Of a stretch of DNA of 64,000 bases, positions 50,854 through 58,169 are shown piece after piece (within the stretch, counting starts at the first letter, position 1; the number at the start of each line of letters is the position of its first letter). The DNA is from an uncultured delta proteobacterium (lineage in GTDB: Bacteria > Desulfobacterota > Binatia > Binatales > Binataceae). The notes beneath the pieces are model-generated. The model was not told the DNA's origin, ran no database searches, and worked only from the letters and a program-made list of their open reading frames with translations. Position numbers and translations under genes: made by a program. Where the stretch lies: NCBI GenBank assembly GCA_963724765.1, contig CAVRVY010000003.1:160001-224000 (forward strand). Direction: 5' to 3'.

Positions 50854-52088
50854 TCACGCTTTACTCGCTATCTCTTCTGGGGACCCAACTGTCAACAACT
50901 TGACCAATTTATCCATAGCTGCAAATACGATCTCGACGCTGTAACCAGCCAAGAAAGCTAGAGCGACTGAGGATATGGACTTCGATTGTAAAAACCAAAC
51001 AACGGCCACTCCAGTTAAAGCGCCGATAATGACTCTCAGGTGGTAGCCATAGCTGGTCGATGCCGTATAAGTTTTCTGCTGAATCTCTAAATTTAGGCTG
51101 CGTAAGATGTACACTAGGGTACCAAGCAGCCCATAAAGAAATGGAAGTACAAATTGTTGAAGTGCCTGTAGCGCAAATGAAGCCTGGACTTTCATTTTCG
51201 CTATGACAACTGTCCTGCGGCCGTCAAACCAACCAGCCGGACCTCTTCTGGACCGCCCTCGCTTTTCGCACCTGGAACCGTCTCTGTTCGGAACAGGAGC
51301 TTTTCATCCTGTTCCTGTTCCTCAACTGACATTCGCCAGGGTGTTATCAGGTATCGCCAAACATGTGTCCAGCCCCGCAACGTGACATAATACCCCGCAA
51401 GAATGGCCACGTGGTCATAGAATCTCTGTCTCAGTTGAAACATCTCGCTCGGCGTCGGAGTGGGTGCAACTAGAGACTCACTTGACCCAGTCTGCTCGTT
51501 TGGGGACTCAGTCGCCTTGCTTACGTCTGGCTGGCTCTTAAAAGGTGCTTCAGCTGCCATTCTCGCTGTATTATCGTTCGAGCCCGTTAAATTTTCACCA
51601 GTTTTAAACCCATATAACTGAGCTACATAGCTTGCCAATTGGTACTGTGTCTGGTCGATGGACTGAGTTATGTCATGACCGATTAGCCAATAGATTTGTG
51701 CCGCCACAAGCAAGAGGAATGTGATGGCTGTAAGTGTCGTGTATCTTCTAATAGCGCGGCGCGCTAGGGATGCACCAAACCACCTATCTGGTATCTCTGT
51801 TATTGCTTTCAGGCTCTCGACCGTTACAGGCTTTGCTAGGCTGCAAAGTTTCGCATAGATGACCCAAAAAGCAGCTTCCTCAGTTGGGTCCAAGTCTGTG
51901 CCAGCGGTTATCTTTTCCTCAATGCCGATGAGAGAAGAGACTTCTGTCTGGTCAACGTTAAGACCCACCTTCACCGCGTGGGTCAACAACAACATGGCGT
52001 CATCAATTTCAGTTTGCGCGCTAGGATGGTGTTGAGCTGTGGATGGTGGAAGCTTTTTATGAGCTTCTTGGGCAGCGTCGTGTTTCAT
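50854..52088 (-). CDS. Hypothetical membrane protein, split by one frameshift (~51200-51300)
   Basis: ORFs 51201-52088 and 50854-51195 are collinear; LPFLYGLLG...ILR and LAFLAGYSVE TM module; lower GC. Confidence 0.7.
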
Positions 52089-52836
52089 TTCGTTTTACCT
52101 ATGCCCACGAGCCTGATTCGGTGCTTGGATTCTTAACCGGAATTTCCTTTTTAAATCCTGATTCAGACTCACACCAAGACTGTTTGGTTTGCAAACGCAA
52201 AGATCAAGCCGGGTTTTGAGCGCGAAGGGCCTTCCACCGCGCCGCAACAGACCGGTTTTGCCTCGTGTTGACATAAGATCCCGAAACCGCCGCTTCTCCG
52301 ACCGAATTCTCAGACACTTCCGCCTGCGCCCCAGCATCGTCACCGAAATTTGCTCCGCCCTGTGCTCGCCTTATCCCGCCGGCGACGGCAGCGCCGCGAT
52401 CTTCCGCAGCATGCCGGCAAACAGCCGCCGGGTCAGATGTCCCTCGGCCAACAGCAACCAGTAGTAGCGCGCATGTTGGATGAGCCGTCCGCCGGTCTTC
52501 ACCAACCGCTGCTGCAAGCTGGTCAGCGACCACTTCCCGATCGGCGCGGGCAGCGCCAGCCGCCGCCACAAATTCCCCAGGTTATAGGCGATGACGCTCA
52601 GCCACAGTCGCACCTCGTTGGCGCGGAAGCGCTGGCAGGAAAGCCGCGTCATCTTCACTGCTTGCTTGCCTTCCTTGATCCATTGCTCCGCAGTGCCGCG
52701 TTTGTTGTAGAAGCGCACCACCGTCCGGCTTGAAGTCCCAAGATTGATGGGATGGACTGCTCCCCACTTGGACGCCAGCCCAGTGGGCCACGATGGTACG
52801 TTTGACTATCAGCAACCAATGCGAGGAGGGTCAGCG

Positions 52837-53881
52837 ATGAAAGTTACAACGTTAGGAATTGATCTAGCAAAGAACGTGTTCCGGGTGCATGGCTGCGATG
52901 CGAGCGGCAAGGTGGTAGTGAGCAAATCGCTTACGCGGCGACAGCTTCAGGTATTGGTTGCCAACCTACCGCCCTGCTTGGTCGGGATGGAGGCGTGTGC
53001 TACGGCGCGCTACTGGGCGCGAGAAATTCAAAAGCACGGCCACGAGGTGCGGTTGATGGCGCCCCAGTTCGTGCGTCCCTATGTAAAGGCCAACAAGAAC
53101 GACACCCGCGATGCCGAGGCTATCTGCGAAGCGGTGCGGCGGCCGACCATGCGTTTCGTCGCGGTGAAAAGCCCGGCGCAGCAGGACGTGCAGGCGCTGC
53201 ATCGGGTTCGTCAACAGCTGGTCAAGGAGTTGACGGCACTGAGCAATCAAGTGCGCGGCCTGCTCGCCGAGTATGGGTTGGCAATTCCGTTGGGTTTCGC
53301 GGCGCTGCGGCGCGCGCTGCCTAGGATTGTCGCAGAGGACGACAACGGGCTCAGCGGTTTGATGCGCGAATTGGTACTCGACCTCAGAGAACGGTTCGAC
53401 CACACGGAGCAGCGGCTGCGCCGCTACAACCAGCAGATCATTCAACTGCTCCACCATGATGAGCGCTGCCAGCGCCTGGCTGAAGTGCCGGGGGTAGGTC
53501 CGCTGACCGCCACAGCAGTGGTCGCGGCCGTTGGTAATGCCCGGGACTTCAGAAGTGGGCGCGAGCTGGCTGCCTACCTTGGGTTGGTTCCACGCCACCG
53601 CGCCAGCGGTGGGCCGTACTGTTATGCTCGGCATCAGCAAGCGGGGTGATAGCTATCTGCGAACCCTTTTGGTCAATGGCGCACGTGCCGCAATGCGTAA
53701 CGTCGGGCGCCGCCGGGATCCGCGCAGCGTCTGGGCCAGTCGTCTCAAACTACGTCGGGGGGCCAATGTTGCAACGGTGGCGCTGGCCAACAAGAACGCT
53801 CGCGTGATGTGGGCATTATTGACTCGAGGTGAGAACTACCGCGCCGTACCCCACCCCGCGCGGATTCCGCAACGCGGCTGA
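52837..53881 (+). CDS. IS110 (DEDD) recombinase, frameshift near 53612
   Basis: GIDLAK, GMEAC, KNDTRDA, VPGVG, GLVP...SGG, GDSYLR.LLV.GA, ALANKNAR. Confidence 0.9.
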
Positions 53882-54154
53882 CGCGCGGAGAAAATCAGAA
53901 CCAGGAAGTTAACCTACCAAGAGTTGCGCAAGCTGTGAACGAAACGGTGATGGCGAACCGGTCGGACCGGCACTTTCTCAAACCTAGCCGTGACCAAGGC
54001 CTTCGAGGCCGCAAAATTGATAAGGCGAAAGTGCGCGGATTTCCATCAGGGCCCGGGGCAATAGCAACAAAGTGCAGCCCCACTCCAGAGAGGCCGAATA
54101 TATGGTTGCAACCGGATCATCGCTCAATCGAATCGCATCCACAGCTTCGCACCG
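53882..54154 (+). ncRNA. Putative bridge/seek RNA region of the IS1111-type element
   Basis: ~270-nt non-coding region containing segments matching the target (CCAAGAgTTG, CGTGACCAA) and the donor (CCATCA, ATATATG). Confidence 0.7.
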
Positions 54155-55270
54155 GGGGAGCGGTCCATATATGGTCACGATGAACCCCACGCGGGGGAAC
54201 AATTCCCCGCAATGGAATTCGACCTTCGCCACCACCCGCCGGGTCATCGTCCAACTCGCCGCCTGGTAAAGAAAACTCTTGTACCGCACCACCGGCTTGT
54301 AGCTTGGCCGTCCCGCTGGCCGGGTCAACAACTCCGTAATGTTCCGCTGCAGATGGTCGTTGGCAGGAATACGAATGGCATACTTCACCGTCCGTTCTTC
54401 CAGCGCCTCGTAGAGCTCCGGCTTGGCAAAGGCGGCGTCGCCACGGAAGGTCACCTCTTTGCCCTGCGCCTGCTGCCGATCGATCTCGGGTAGCAGCAGT
54501 TCCTCCCAACCCTCGGCGCTGTGGACGTTGCCGGGGCGCAGCTTCGCCGCTAGGCAGTCGCCTTCGCGATTGAACAGCAGCAAGGGATGATAACAGGTGG
54601 ACTCGAAGTGGCCGTTGTACGCACTGTGCTCCTGCCGACCATGGACCGGGATTTCCGTGCTGTCCATATCAAGCACTACCCGCCGCGGTGAAGCGATGGC
54701 CTCTGCCTTGGCGAGCAACTCCCGGTTGAGCGCGGCCAGCCCGGCAAGGTTTTCTCCTTGCGTCAGCACTTGGGTCTCGAATGATTGCAAGCGCGAGGTC
54801 AAGGCCGCGCCCCGCTCCCAGATCTTCCGCGAGCCGATGAGCCGGAAGGTCGGATCCTGGGACAGCCGCTCGGCGTCGTTGACATCCTCATACCCCGCCA
54901 AGCGGCTATAGATCGACTGCCGCAGCAGGTCCGCCAAAGGCAATTGGATATTCTTGCCGCGGCGGAAATCGCTCAAGTGCCGGTCCACGAGTGCGCTCAA
55001 GCCGAGATGTTCGTCCAGCTCGCGCACCAGAACTAATCCACCATCCGAGGTCACCCGTGAACCTTGGAAGTCCACCCTCAAGGAGCCGTTGAACGAGAGC
55101 TGAAAGGGCCGTCGTTGCGTCTCACCCACTGCCTCGCCACCTCCACACCACCCCGATCGCATCCAAACCCACGTCCATCAGCGCGTTTGTCGCATTTTAT
55201 CAAATTGCTAGCTCACTGAGAAAATGGGAATGTGGGTTAAAAAAAGAGGAACCCTCCTGGCCGCGTTCCT

Positions 55271-56713: not shown

Positions 56714-57620
56714 CTTGTATCTGCAAATCGGCGTATGAAGGTAGTAGCGGGCGCGGCAGACCGTTAAAACCTGGGTCGGCAGAGACCGTGGTTTAGCCAG
56801 GATCGTCGCGTCCGCTAAATCAAGCGTCCACAGCTCGAACAGTTGACGGGGCCGCGCGCAAGGCACGAGCCCGCATGTACAAGGACGGGTTAGGACGCGG
56901 AGTGAGGAGCAGCGGGGTGATGGGCGAAGAGGTGTATGTTGGGATCGATGTAAGCAAGACCGAGCTAGTGGTGGCGGTGCGCCCCAGCGGACAGAGCTTC
57001 ACGCTGGCCTACGATCGGGTGGGGCTGAAGCACTTGGTGGGTCGTTTGGGCAAACTGCAGCCCAAGCTGGTGGTGGTGGAAGCGACTGGCGGATTGCAAC
57101 GGCAGGTGGCGGCGGCGCTGTGGACCGCGGGGGTCGCGGTGGCAGCCGTCAATCCGAGCTGGGTACGGAGCTACGCGCGGGGTAGCGGACTATTGGCGAA
57201 GACCGACCGCATCGATGCCAAGCTACTCGCACTGTTTGCGCAACGCGAGCAACCCGCGCCGCGGCCGCCGCTGGATGCGGAGACCCAGGCGCTGCAGGAA
57301 TTGGCCACCCGGCGCGACCAATTGCTCGAGATGCGCGTGGCGGAGCAACAGCGGCTGCAGCGCGCAGGTCCGTAAAGAGTTGCGCCACCATATCGCTTAC
57401 CTAGAGGGCCGGATCACAGAGATCGACGATGACATCGATAAGTCCGTGCGGCGCTCCGCGGCCTGGCGGCGCAAGAGCGAGGTGCTCCGCAGCTTTCCGG
57501 GCGTGGGCAAGGTGTTCTGCGCCACGGTGCTGTCCAAGTTGCCGGAACTGGGCACGCTCAGCGGTAAAGCCGCCGCAGCCCTGGTCGGAATCGCTCCGTT
57601 CCCCGATGATAGCGGCGGCC
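56714..57620 (+). mobile_element. IS110-family element (IS621-like left end), 3'-truncated; transposase from 56920, frameshift ~57365
   Basis: CT-TGTAT left end; GIDVSK, VEATGG, AKTDRIDA, PGVG, GIAP...DSG. Confidence 0.88.
56735..56900 (+). ncRNA. Putative bridge RNA in the IS110 left non-coding end
   Basis: Ordered guide-like segments GTTAAAACCT, GGTTTAG, ACAGTTGAC, TACAAGG upstream of the recombinase gene. Confidence 0.72.
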
Positions 57621-58169
57621 GCGGCGCGGGTTGCTCGCGTTGCGCAAACAGTGCGAGTAGCTTGGCATCGATGCGGTCGGTCTTCGCCAATAGTCCGCTA
57701 CCCCGCGCGTAGCTCCGTACCCAGCTCGGATTGACGGCTGCCACCGCGACCCCCGCGGTCCACAGCGCCGCCGCCACCTGCCGTTGCAATCCGCCAGTCG
57801 CTTCCACCACCACCAGCTTGGGCTGCAGTTTGCCCAAACGACCCACCAAGTGCTTCAGCCCCACCCGATCGTAGGCCAGCGTGAAGCTCTGTCCGCTGGG
57901 GCGCACCGCCACCACTAGCTCGGTCTTGCTTACATCGATCCCAACATACACCTCTTCGCCCATCACCCCGCTGCTCCTCACTCCGCGTCCTAACCCGTCC
58001 TTGTACATGCGGGCTCGTGCCTTGCGCGCGGCCCCGTCAACTGTTCGAGCTGTGGACGCTTGATTTAGCGGACGCGACGATCCTGGCTAAACCACGGTCT
58101 CTGCCGACCCAGGTTTTAACGGTCTGCCGCGCCCGCTACTACCTTCATACGCCGATTTGCAGATACAAG
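57611..58169 (-). mobile_element. Second, inverted partial copy of the same IS110 (left end plus ~117 N-terminal codons)
   Basis: Reverse complement of 56714-57272. Confidence 0.85.

What the first reader, a model, noticed from the sequence alone, without database searches (positions are those of the whole stretch)
52735..54180. IS1111-type element whose 3' non-coding RNA region matches its insertion site inside an IS1380 transposase
Seen: removing 52747-54173 restores CCCAAGAT-TG-GTCACG and the IS1380 reading frame. The downstream non-coding region contains CCAAGAgTTG (53917-53926; left target with a one-base bulge) and CGTGACCAA (53989-53997; exact 9-nt reverse complement of TTGGTCACG). The predicted circle junction ATATA-TG-ATGGG is matched by CCATCA (54043-54048, reverse complement) and ATATATG (54098-54104). 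Established: IS1111-group elements have subterminal IRs and a guide RNA in the 3' non-coding region. Inference: this is a second RNA-guided IS here whose target lies in another IS, with a TG core. The order of the donor-matching segments differs from IS621.
Basis: partly seen in the sequence, partly recalled or inferred. Interest (0 to 1): 0.75.

Follow-up and report, generated by a model that had tools for sequence, protein, structure and literature searches.

The report
RNA-guided IS nested in IS1380
This is a slightly decayed copy of a known kind of jumping gene (IS1111 type) that picks its landing site with its own small guide RNA; it landed inside another jumping gene's transposase, and is a clear but ordinary example.

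Summary
Window 52747-54173 is a 1427-bp IS110-family element of the IS1111 group. Removing it restores a 454-aa IS1380 transposase. Metagenome contigs show the same site empty, with a 2-base overlap, the TG core. The element has 14-bp subterminal inverted repeats, a 90-nt 5' end and a 292-nt 3' non-coding region.

Across 58-110 homologues with other targets, four segments of that region covary with their own flanks or ends (0 of 1000-2000 permutations):
- RTG 53989-53996, matching 8 of 8
- RDG 54043-54048
- LDG 54098-54104
- an LTG at 54012-54019, matching 7 of 8

The guides sit in two covariation-supported stem-loops. Their order, top-strand guide first, is the one published for IS1111 seekRNAs and the reverse of IS621.

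The transposase carries a 1-base frameshift at 53611-53613. An intact variant exists in another sample.

Verdict: a new member of a known kind, single copy, probably not autonomous. Two family-wide oddities are worth a specialist's look. One is a helix that pairs the RDG with an upstream segment. The other is a second core base that differs between the left and right junctions.

The parts
52371..52746 (-). C-terminal part of the interrupted IS1380-family transposase gene (left flank of the insertion)
   Evidence: PF13701 profile positions 324-434. It joins in frame to 54174-55162 when 52747-54173 is removed.
52739..52746 (+). Left target plus core as found at the site: CAAGAT + TG
   Evidence: It matches the LTG at 7 of 8 positions.
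52747..54173 (+). The whole IS1111-group element, 1427 bp (boundary ambiguous by the 2-base TG core)
   Evidence: ORF restoration. Contigs in run X5 skip exactly 1427 bases with 2 ambiguous bases.
52747..52751 (+). Left-end extension ATGGG (right donor half, RD)
   Evidence: Homologues have ATGGG, ATGGA, ATGAA, ATAGT etc. here, tracked by the RDG.
52752..52765 (+). Left subterminal inverted repeat ATGGACTGCTCCCC
   Evidence: 13 of 14 bases complementary to 54155-54168. 67 of 80 homologous loci have an IR of the ATGGAC type (most begin ATGGAC, some ATGAAC, ATGGTC or ATGGGC) at the same distances.
52837..53613 (+). Transposase gene, part 1: DEDD/RuvC-like domain, coiled coil, start of the C-terminal domain including GLVPRHRASG
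   Evidence: PF01548 and PF02371 positions 1-52. NF033542 profile positions 2-268 of 343.
53611..53613 (+). GGG run holding the 1-base frameshift
   Evidence: The X5 contig has one letter fewer at 53611 (3.7 of 3.7 depth), which reads as a 347-aa ORF. X1 (0 of 3.9) and X4 (0 of 5) share the window's form.
53615..53881 (+). Transposase gene, part 2, in another frame
   Evidence: NF033542 profile positions 271-342. PF02371 positions 54-78.
53917..53926 (+).
53948..53953 (+). Conserved UGAUGG segment, complementary to the RDG
   Evidence: 96.8% of cells paired, and 4 of 6 pairs show compensatory change. 642 of 660 cells paired in 110 sequences.
53960..53968 (+). Small conserved hairpin GGU-CGG-ACC
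   Evidence: 97.7% paired.
53970..54034 (+). Target-binding stem-loop: outer stem 53970-77 with 54027-34, inner hairpin 53998-54001 with 54007-10, guides in the internal loop
   Evidence: 15-17 compensatory sequences per outer-stem pair and 25-27 at two of the four inner-stem pairs (5 and 0 at the other two).
53989..53996 (+). [quoted passage not shown]
   Evidence: Own flank 6.65 of 8 against 3.97 for others' flanks; 6.84 against 3.89 in 110 sequences.
54012..54019 (+). LTG, CAAAAUUG: same sense as left target plus core, 7 of 8 (A at 54015 against G at 52742)
   Evidence: Own flank 6.19 of 8 against 4.14; 6.11 against 4.10. The closest relatives carry the same LTG.
54035..54109 (+). Donor-binding stem-loop: 3-bp outer stem 54035-37 with 54107-09 (weak), inner stems 54050-53 with 54092-95 and 54055-58 with 54078-81
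   Evidence: The inner stems are 100% and 89.5% paired with compensatory changes. The outer stem shows none.
54043..54048 (+). RDG, CCAUCA: complement of TG+ATGG (core plus left end)
   Evidence: The reverse complement equals left-end bases 1-4 in 55 of 57 sequences and 105 of 110.
54098..54104 (+). LDG, AUAUAUG: same sense as the right end AT-ATA plus core TG
   Evidence: The xTA triplet equals that of the element's own right end in 48 of 48 unique homologues. Own end 5.89 of 6 against 4.45.
54146..54151 (+). Candidate -35 (TTCGCA) of a junction promoter; the -10 (TATGAT) would form only across the circle junction
   Evidence: Hexamer scan of the computed junction, 9 of 12 matches with an 18-nt spacer. 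Inference only.
54155..54168 (+). Right subterminal inverted repeat GGGGAGCGGTCCAT
54169..54173 (+). Right-end extension ATA (end of the left donor half, LD) plus the TG core copy
54174..55162 (-). N-terminal part of the interrupted IS1380-family transposase gene (right flank)
   Evidence: PF13701 positions 2-310. NF033539.

Best explanation
This is an IS110-family insertion sequence of the IS1111 group that inserted, in antisense orientation, into the FIVTNL codons of an IS1380 transposase gene at a TG core. No target duplication was made beyond the shared core. Its 3' non-coding region encodes a bridge RNA (the 'long seekRNA' of Siddiquee et al.) of about 150-165 nt, roughly 53948-54110. The first stem-loop carries the right-target guide (53989-96, pairs with the top strand) and then the left-target guide (54012-19, pairs with the bottom strand). 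The second carries the right-donor guide (54043-48) and then the left-donor guide (54098-104). By analogy with IS621 and ISEc11, the DEDD transposase bound to this RNA would recombine the circular form of the element (right end, TG, left end) with a DNA site that matches the target guides. This copy has a 1-base frameshift after the catalytic Ser-Gly motif and is the only copy in its genome, so it is probably not autonomous now. An intact allele exists in another sample. Shown here: the anatomy, the exact boundaries, the empty site, the covariation of all four guide positions with flanks and ends, and the RNA helices. Inferred: that the RNA is transcribed and processed, that it binds the protein, and the recombination chemistry.
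For: Insertion and boundaries: 454-aa ORF restored; 2 X5 contigs skip 1427 bases with a 2-base overlap; one X2 contig shows a diverged empty site.

Family: PF01548 and PF02371. NF033542 'IS110 family RNA-guided transposase' matches profile positions 2-268 and 271-342 on two frames. The subterminal IR matches at 13 of 14 bases. The NCR is 292 nt downstream against 90 nt upstream. The motif GLVPRHRASG is present, and the gene reads as 347 aa in the X5 form. 78 of 80 homologous loci have ORFs of 333-366 aa, and 67 of 80 have an IR pair of the ATGGAC type at the same distances.

Guides, own flank or end against other elements' (0 of 2000 permutations each):
- RTG 6.65 against 3.97 of 8
- LTG 6.19 against 4.14 of 8
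- RDG 4.59 against 3.83 of 5
- LDG 5.89 against 4.45 of 6
Repeated on 110 unique sequences: RTG 6.84 against 3.89 and LTG 6.11 against 4.10, 0 of 1000 permutations. The LDG triplet equals that of the element's own right end in 48 of 48.

Natural retargeting: the closest relatives (82-87% NCR identity) share the LTG but have RTG UGUGCCCA. One of them (L098) sits at AAAAT-TG-GGCACAA, not in an IS1380 gene. The window's RTG differs at 2 bases and matches its own site 8 of 8.

Structure: RNAalifold gives 27 pairs, 19 with compensatory change. For my 35-pair model, 90.1% of cells pair, against 33-41% when partners are slid and 76.7% when shuffled, and 24 pairs change on both sides. G-U pairs are frequent, which fits the + strand being the RNA.

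Published order for IS1111 seekRNAs is top-strand match 5' of bottom-strand match (PMC11187229, sections 9 and 12 read). IS621 has LTG and LDG on the 5' side (PMC11208160, passages).
Against: There is no expression evidence: no RNA run was available. No Rfam family matches. The single-sequence fold is no better than shuffles (z = 0.41).

In the window alone only the RTG match stands out (22 of 2000 shuffles). The donor matches do not (304 and 128 of 2000).

The LTG has one mismatch to the actual site.

The RDG is also complementary to an upstream RNA segment (96.8% of cells paired), so its conservation could be partly structural. Its last two bases (CA) are nearly constant and do not track the left-junction core in most homologues.

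The permutation tests do not correct for relatedness of the sequences.

Placement among named ISfinder IS1111 members could not be tested.
Confidence: 0.88

Rival explanations
1. The left-target guide is CCAAGAgUUG at 53917-53926 with a one-base bulge, 5' of the right-target guide, so the target guides have IS621 order and only the donor guides are reversed.
For: The window matches 7 of 8 there, or 9 of 9 with a bulge. The window-restricted test shows a slight excess of own-flank over other-flank matches (4.31 against 4.09; 17 of 2000 permutations reached it).
Against: The block is conserved across homologues with unrelated targets (consensus CCACCGATTGC). A 6-nt exact sense match arises in 1388 of 2000 shuffles. 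A different segment, 54012-19, tracks the left flank strongly (6.19 against 4.14; 6.11 against 4.10). That segment lies in the internal loop opposite the RTG, and its position fits the published IS1111 order (PMC11187229).
Confidence: 0.04
2. The RNA guides only target choice, the 'short seekRNA' view. The element ends are recognised by the transposase through the subterminal repeats. CCAUCA (54043-48) is mainly one strand of an RNA helix with UGAUGG (53948-53), not a donor guide.
For: The helix is 96.8% paired, with compensatory changes at 4 of 6 pairs, and 642 of 660 cells pair in 110 sequences. It crosses the 3-bp outer stem of my donor loop, which shows no compensatory change. Siddiquee et al. 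describe an abundant 82-96-nt RNA carrying only target matches (PMC11187229 section 9; PMC13604230 Table 1, passage seen).
Against: A purely structural helix has no reason to track the left-end bases, yet the reverse complement of the RDG equals left-end bases 1-4 in 105 of 110 sequences and in 10 of 14 informative cases. The upstream strand follows less well, at 96 of 110 and 8 of 14. The LDG triplet equals that of the element's own right end in 48 of 48. Durrant et al. report donor-complementary loops in IS1111 members (PMC11208160, passages; figure not seen).
Confidence: 0.15
3. The element is still active. The frameshift is either an assembly error or is bypassed by programmed frameshifting.
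For: The shift lies in a homopolymer run (GGG, 53611-13). An allele one base shorter exists in X5. In X5 the site occurs both occupied (record 30 covers the right junction) and empty.
Against: Contigs of two other runs from different studies (X1, X4) carry the same extra base (0 of 3.9 and 0 of 5 depth with the deletion). One of these may be the source sample. 78 of 80 homologues have one uninterrupted ORF. There is a single copy in the genome. The X5 empty-site contigs were laid at 90% likeness or more and may be other IS1380 copies or other organisms.
Confidence: 0.07
4. There is no RNA guidance here at all: the matches between the non-coding region and the flanks are coincidence.
For: Within this one sequence three of the four matches are not significant. 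There is no Rfam hit and no fold signal.
Against: All four positions covary with flanks or ends across 57-110 homologues, and no permutation reached the observed value. The helices framing them show 24 pairs with compensatory change.
Confidence: 0.01

Closest known systems
ISEc11, ISPa11, ISKpn4 and ISPst6 with their seekRNAs (IS1111 family; Siddiquee et al. 2024, PMC11187229)
   Same: A DEDD transposase of about 340 aa with the GL-P----S(t)G motif. Subterminal inverted repeats. A long non-coding region downstream of tnp. An RNA with one segment complementary to the top strand placed 5' of one complementary to the bottom strand, overlapping at the insertion point. Short (about 80 nt) and long (about 150-170 nt) forms fit the first stem-loop alone and both stem-loops here.
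   Different: The target is different (an IS1380 transposase gene). Sequence identity to those named IS could not be measured, as they are not held in the tools. Here the donor-matching segments are also mapped and shown to covary, which the passages I read of that paper do not describe. This copy is frameshifted.
IS621 bridge RNA (IS110 group; Durrant et al. 2024, PMC11208160; Hiraizumi et al. 2024, PMC11208158)
   Same: Two stem-loops with internal loops, one for the target and one for the donor. [quoted passage not shown] A circular donor form, possibly with a junction promoter.
   Different: The RNA lies 3' of tnp rather than 5'. Within each loop the top-strand guide (RTG, RDG) comes first, the reverse of IS621. 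The subterminal repeats are long (14 bp against 2-3 bp). The core is TG rather than CT. An extra upstream segment pairs with the RDG. I found no handshake-type covariation at the two bases after the LDG core.
ISEc21 (IS110 family), which targets the DDE-coding region of IS3-family transposase genes (PMC11187229, section 12)
   Same: An RNA-guided IS whose target lies in conserved codons of another IS's transposase gene.
   Different: A different group (5' non-coding region, opposite guide order) and a different victim family (IS3 rather than IS1380). For the present element only one insertion is known.
IS4321 and IS5075 (IS1111 family), which target the terminal repeats of Tn21-family transposons (Partridge and Hall 2003, seen only as a reference in PMC11208160 and PMC13626964)
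   Same: IS1111-group elements with subterminal repeats that home to another mobile element.
   Different: Their target is a terminal inverted repeat, not a coding sequence. I made no comparison of sequence.

Membership tests
IS110 family, IS1111 group | DEDD (RuvC-like) N-terminal domain plus the IS110-type C-terminal domain | tested here: met
   PF01548 (E 8.7e-21) and PF02371. NF033542 scores 282 bits against a cut-off of 140. The gene is split over two frames.
IS110 family, IS1111 group | Subterminal inverted repeats of about 7-17 bp, set in from the ends | tested here: met
   14 bp with 13 of 14 matching, 5 nt from each end. Conserved in 67 of 80 homologous loci.
IS110 family, IS1111 group | The long non-coding region lies downstream of tnp and the left end is short | tested here: met
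   292 nt after the stop codon against 90 nt before the start codon.
IS110 family, IS1111 group | Transposase of 330-350 aa with the C-terminal motif GL-P----S(t)G | tested here: inconclusive
   The motif GLVPRHRASG is present, and the gene reads as 347 aa in the form of the X5 contig. As it stands in the window the ORF is broken at 53611-13.
IS110 family, IS1111 group | Site-specific insertion without target duplication beyond the shared core | tested here: met
   Exact ORF restoration. Empty-site contigs show a 2-base overlap.
IS110 family, IS1111 group | Transposase clusters with named IS1111 members (IS1111, ISEc11, IS4321 and others) in a tree | not testable with these tools
   No ISfinder sequences are held. 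The plasmid tblastn gives only 'IS110 family transposase' at 55% identity or less.
Bridge RNA / seekRNA | A structured RNA in the non-coding region with guide-bearing internal loops | tested here: met
   27 RNAalifold pairs, 19 with compensatory change. 90.1% of cells pair, against 33-41% when partners are slid.
Bridge RNA / seekRNA | Segments complementary to both strands of the target, overlapping at the core, that change with the target | tested here: met
   RTG matches 8 of 8 and LTG 7 of 8 in the window. Own flank against others' flanks: 6.65 against 3.97 and 6.19 against 4.14, repeated on 110 sequences.
Bridge RNA / seekRNA | Segments matching the element's own ends (donor guides) | tested here: met
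   The LDG triplet equals that of the own right end in 48 of 48. The RDG matches in 105 of 110. Caveat: the RDG also pairs with an upstream RNA segment.
Bridge RNA / seekRNA | The RNA is made, processed and bound by the transposase, and is needed for transposition | not testable with these tools
   No RNA run was available. This needs experiments.
IS1380 family (the interrupted host gene) | DDE transposase matching the IS1380 models | tested here: met
   PF13701 with E 2.1e-81 and 3.6e-30 on the two halves. NF033539 scores 244 bits against a cut-off of 180.

The most novel reading that the evidence does not exclude
In this IS1111 subgroup, donor recognition and the direction of the reaction may work differently from IS621 in two ways. 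(a) The right-donor guide is held in an RNA helix whose sequence copies the duplex of core plus left end (UGAUGG with CCAUCA). The RNA may therefore open and swap strands with the donor, reading both strands of the left end, or keep the guide masked until the donor is met. (b) In 87 of 110 homologues the base after the shared core base is A at the left junction but G at the right junction, while every guide carries G (or C opposite it). This implies either a one-base overlap or a built-in mismatch that favours pairing after strand exchange, a handshake-like device that would bias the reaction towards insertion. The window's own element belongs to the minority with TG on both sides.
Probability: 0.25. 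Interest if true: 0.55.

Novelty: new member of a known kind. Interest (0 to 1): 0.3.

Why it matters
The finding adds no new kind of system. RNA-guided IS110 and IS1111 elements, their 3' guide RNAs and even IS that target other IS are in print.

Its value is as a clean, fully mapped natural example:
- exact ends backed by empty-site contigs
- all four guide positions placed in a covariation-supported fold
- a pair of close relatives in which two base changes in one guide go with a new right half-site

The alignment of about 110 elements with known ends and flanks could help anyone designing IS1111-type bridge recombinases. The alignment also shows two unexplained regularities, the helix that pairs with the RDG and the unequal second core base. 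Both are cheap to test and bear on how donor recognition and direction are set in this less-studied group.

Tried and rejected
1. Rfam, evalue mode, over 52000-55200: 0 matches.
2. Single-sequence fold of 53882-54173: z = 0.41, so no signal.
3. Scanning the whole non-coding region for the best match of flank words: too noisy (own 7.47 against others' 6.31 of 9 for the right target). I replaced it with windows fixed by alignment.
5. Handshake-like extension of the LDG. In the window the two bases after the core (GU) match the first two bases of the right flank. Across 48 unique homologues the first such base matches in 23 (about 16 expected) and the second in 12 (12 expected), so I treat this as chance.
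6. A perfect guide-predicted site in the window's own genome: none found. There were 6 one-mismatch hits against 1 for the reversed control.
7. Other IS1380-like remnants in the genome (3): all are uninterrupted at the homologous point and have other left halves.
8. More copies with the same guides: none in the own genome, none in 165 genomes of the same order (best 83-87% non-coding-region identity), none in genome contigs (best 72% aa) and none in metagenome contigs (best 70% aa). The question 'do other copies hit FIVTNL codons?' stays open.
9. The closest relative, L098, lies between genes and not in an IS1380.
10. Named relatives: the plasmid tblastn gave only generic 'IS110 family transposase' labels.
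11. RNA evidence: no RNA holder was listed.
12. Parts of the element had no contig cover in X4 and X5 (52786-52947). I draw nothing from this.
13. Print search for an IS1111-type element targeting IS1380: search (terms IS1380 and IS1111) returned 5 papers, none on this by title or abstract listing. Searches were the searches for the field.
14. Supplements and figures are closed. Durrant Extended Data Fig. 10c and Supplementary Table 5, and Siddiquee Supplementary Figs 6-7 and 12, may already show the donor-guide order or the upstream helix for IS1111 members.

Rows dropped before the counts. Of the 80 loci, I dropped 2 with a short or open ORF, 8 with no IR found (6 of these had too little flank) and 3 whose best IR was not of the ATGGAC type. 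That left 67. Of these, 59 had 20-nt flanks on both sides, and 58 were unique; the window was added to them. Of the 80 loci, 53 passed the same end-finding.


Full report
WHAT IS THERE. The sequence around the finding reads ...CCCAAGAT-TG|ATGGGATGGAC... on the left and ...GGTCCATATA-TG|GTCACGATG... on the right. Taking out 52747-54173 (1427 bp) joins two minus-strand ORFs into one of 454 aa that reads ...RVGFIVTNLGTSS.... Both halves match IS1380 models: PF13701 with E 2.1e-81 and 3.6e-30, and NF033539.

Contigs of four public metagenome runs were laid on 52300-54700 (90% likeness or more). In run X5, 2 contigs skip exactly 1427 bases (52744 to 54172), with 2 bases that fit either side. In X2, one contig shows a diverged but likewise empty site. 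So the ends and the TG core are set by the restored reading frame and supported by the empty-site contigs. The tool warns that joints laid below 95% likeness may come from other organisms. Here that only means the empty copies may be other IS1380 copies.

THE ELEMENT. The + strand carries an IS110-family transposase gene: PF01548 plus PF02371, and NF033542 'IS110 family RNA-guided transposase'. It is split over two frames. Profile positions 2-268 lie in 52837-53613 and positions 271-342 in 53615-53881.

The break is a GGG run at 53611-13, just after the GLVPRHRASG motif. The X5 contig has one letter fewer there (3.7 of 3.7 depth), and read that way the gene is 347 aa. Contigs of X1 (0 of 3.9) and X4 (0 of 5) have the window's form, and X2 has no cover there.

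78 of 80 homologous loci have unbroken ORFs of 333-366 aa. The ends carry 14-bp subterminal inverted repeats (13 of 14 matching) set 5 nt in from each end. The non-coding stretch is 90 nt before the start codon and 292 nt after the stop.

These are the published marks of the IS1111 group (PMC11187229 section 6 read; PMC11208160 passages). The genome holds this element once, plus 7 partial matches at 66-83% identity.

THE GUIDE RNA. One sequence alone says little. The fold is no better than shuffles and Rfam has nothing. Only the 9-nt antisense target match is unusual, at 22 of 2000 shuffles. The 7-nt donor sense match arises in 304 of 2000, the 8-nt donor antisense match in 128 of 2000, and the 6-nt sense target match in 1388 of 2000.

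I therefore collected relatives: 80 loci from species genomes at 48-72% aa identity and 80 from metagenomes at up to 70%. 67 of the first 80 have an IR pair of the ATGGAC type about 85 nt before the start codon and about 275 nt after the stop. That fixes their ends and flanks without reference to the RNA.

Aligning the last 300 nt shows four short variable blocks between conserved helices. For each block I scored the best match of each element's own flank or end word inside a fixed alignment window. I compared that with the words of all other elements (57-58 unique pairs for the target blocks, 37 and 28 for the donor blocks):
- RTG: 6.65 against 3.97 of 8
- LTG: 6.19 against 4.14 of 8
- RDG: 4.59 against 3.83 of 5
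- LDG: 5.89 against 4.45 of 6
None of 2000 permutations reached the observed value in any of the four.

With 53 metagenome loci added (110 unique sequences), RTG gave 6.84 against 3.89 and LTG 6.11 against 4.10, with 0 of 1000 permutations. The xTA triplet of the LDG equals that of the element's own right end in 48 of 48 unique homologues. These tests do not correct for relatedness. However, the targets are nearly all different: 55-56 distinct words among 57-58 sequences.

In the window the blocks are:
- RTG 53989-96, CGUGACCA, 8 of 8 to TG+GTCACG
- LTG 54012-19, CAAAAUUG, 7 of 8 to CAAGAT+TG
- RDG 54043-48, CCAUCA
- LDG 54098-104, AUAUAUG

The block at 53917-26 is conserved across elements with unrelated targets. 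It gives 4.31 against 4.09 (17 of 2000 permutations reached it). I read the window's match there as chance. With the corrected LTG, both loops have the top-strand guide first. This is the order Siddiquee et al. report for IS1111 seekRNAs and the reverse of IS110-type ISEc21 (PMC11187229, sections 9 and 12). It is also the reverse of IS621, where LTG and LDG are on the 5' side (PMC11208160, passages).

STRUCTURE. RNAalifold on 57 sequences predicts 27 pairs, 19 of them with compensatory change. My 35-pair model has 90.1% of cells paired. That compares with 76.7% after shuffling (0 of 500 shuffles as high) and 33-41% with partners slid by 1-3 columns. 24 pairs change on both sides.

The model is:
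- a small hairpin (53960-68)
- a target stem-loop: outer stem 53970-77 with 54027-34, a 3-bp helix 53983-85 with 54023-25 inside the loop region (84.2% of cells paired, compensatory change at all 3 pairs), inner hairpin 53998-54010, and RTG and LTG in the internal loop
- a donor stem-loop: inner stems 54050-53 with 54092-95 and 54055-58 with 54078-81, with RDG before and LDG after
The 3-bp outer stem of the donor loop (54035-37 with 54107-09) shows no compensatory change. Frequent G-U pairs fit transcription of the + strand.

RETARGETING. The nearest relatives have 82-87% non-coding-region identity and come from genomes of the same order. They carry the same LTG but have RTG UGUGCCCA. One of them, L098, has both flanks held, and these read AAAAT-TG-GGCACAA, between genes and not in an IS1380. 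The window's RTG differs at two bases, and both changes fit its own site. The LTG kept the ancestral A, which is the one mismatch.

Three other IS1380-like remnants in the genome have the same right half (GTCACG) but other left halves, and all are empty. No second copy with the window's guides was found anywhere. So a habit of hitting IS1380 genes is not shown. An IS of this family targeting conserved codons of another IS is in print for ISEc21 and IS3-family genes (PMC11187229, section 12).

TWO FAMILY-WIDE ODDITIES.

(1) A conserved upstream segment, UGAUGG (53948-53), is complementary to the RDG. 96.8% of cells pair, and 4 of 6 pairs show compensatory change. In 110 sequences, 642 of 660 cells pair. 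Both strands follow the left-end bases, the RDG more faithfully: 105 of 110 against 96 of 110, and 10 against 8 of the 14 informative cases. The helix crosses the weak outer stem of the donor loop. It may mask the guide, scaffold the RNA, or let both strands of the left end be read.

(2) The first core base is the same at both junctions in 103 of 110 elements. The second is the same in only 16 of 110: it is A on the left and G on the right in 87. The guides carry G at that place (LDG 39 of 48). The 3 exact guide-predicted empty sites found in 3 genomes all have G (totals there were not above the reversed-pattern control). So in most members the donor seems to bring A and the target G. This means either a one-base overlap or a tolerated mismatch. 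The window's clade has TG on both sides.

I could not see supplements or figures that might already cover either point.

CONTEXT. The element sits in a patch of IS debris. Besides the IS1380 it interrupts, two truncated IS110-family N-terminal fragments face each other at 56875-57375 (+) and 57397-58008 (-).

VERDICT. This is a real, well-supported member of a known kind: an IS1111-group element with a bridge RNA (long seekRNA). It is single-copy and frameshifted here. Papers used: PMC11187229 (outline and sections 6, 9, 12, 13 read). PMC11208160, PMC11208158, PMC13626964, PMC13604230 and PMC12288879 (passages found by term search only).

Noticed in passing
window 53948-53953 with 54043-54048; homologues L016-L095 and L130-L209: A conserved upstream RNA segment (UGAUGG) is complementary to the right-donor guide. 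642 of 660 cells pair in 110 sequences, with compensatory changes, and both strands track the left-end bases. This helix crosses the weak 3-bp outer stem of the donor loop.
   Followed up: partly
junctions of homologues L016-L095 and L130-L209 (window: 52745-46 and 54172-73): The base after the shared core base is A at the left junction and G at the right junction in 87 of 110 family members. It is equal in only 16 of 110, the window among them. The guides carry G at that place. This suggests a one-base overlap or a tolerated donor-target mismatch.
   Followed up: partly
window 53611-53613: The transposase frameshift is one extra G in a GGG run. It is shared by contigs of runs X1 and X4 and absent from a contig of run X5, so broken and intact alleles coexist in nature.
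   Followed up: yes
window 56875-57375 (+) and 57397-58008 (-): Two truncated IS110-family transposase N-terminal fragments (PF01548 only) face each other about 2.7 kb downstream, so the region is an IS graveyard.
   Followed up: no
own genome: L003 (C1:654055-654698), L004 (C4:1700162-1700321), L005 (C3:17233-17339), L006 (C1:276078-276270): Four further loci hold related 3' non-coding regions (69-83% identity) with no PF01548 hit beside them. In L004 the RTG matches its own right flank. These are 3' remnants or possibly non-autonomous guide-RNA-bearing pieces.
   Followed up: no
window 54146-54151 plus the computed circle junction: A candidate junction promoter: -35 TTCGCA in the right end, an 18-nt spacer, and -10 TATGAT formed only when the right end is joined to the left end. 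The -35-like TTGCA or TTGGCA is conserved in homologues.
   Followed up: partly
L098 (G093:C220), right flank: The closest relative with both flanks held sits about 60 nt from what looks like a tRNA gene, at a site whose two halves repeat GGGCACAA. The tRNA was not checked with ARAGORN.
   Followed up: no
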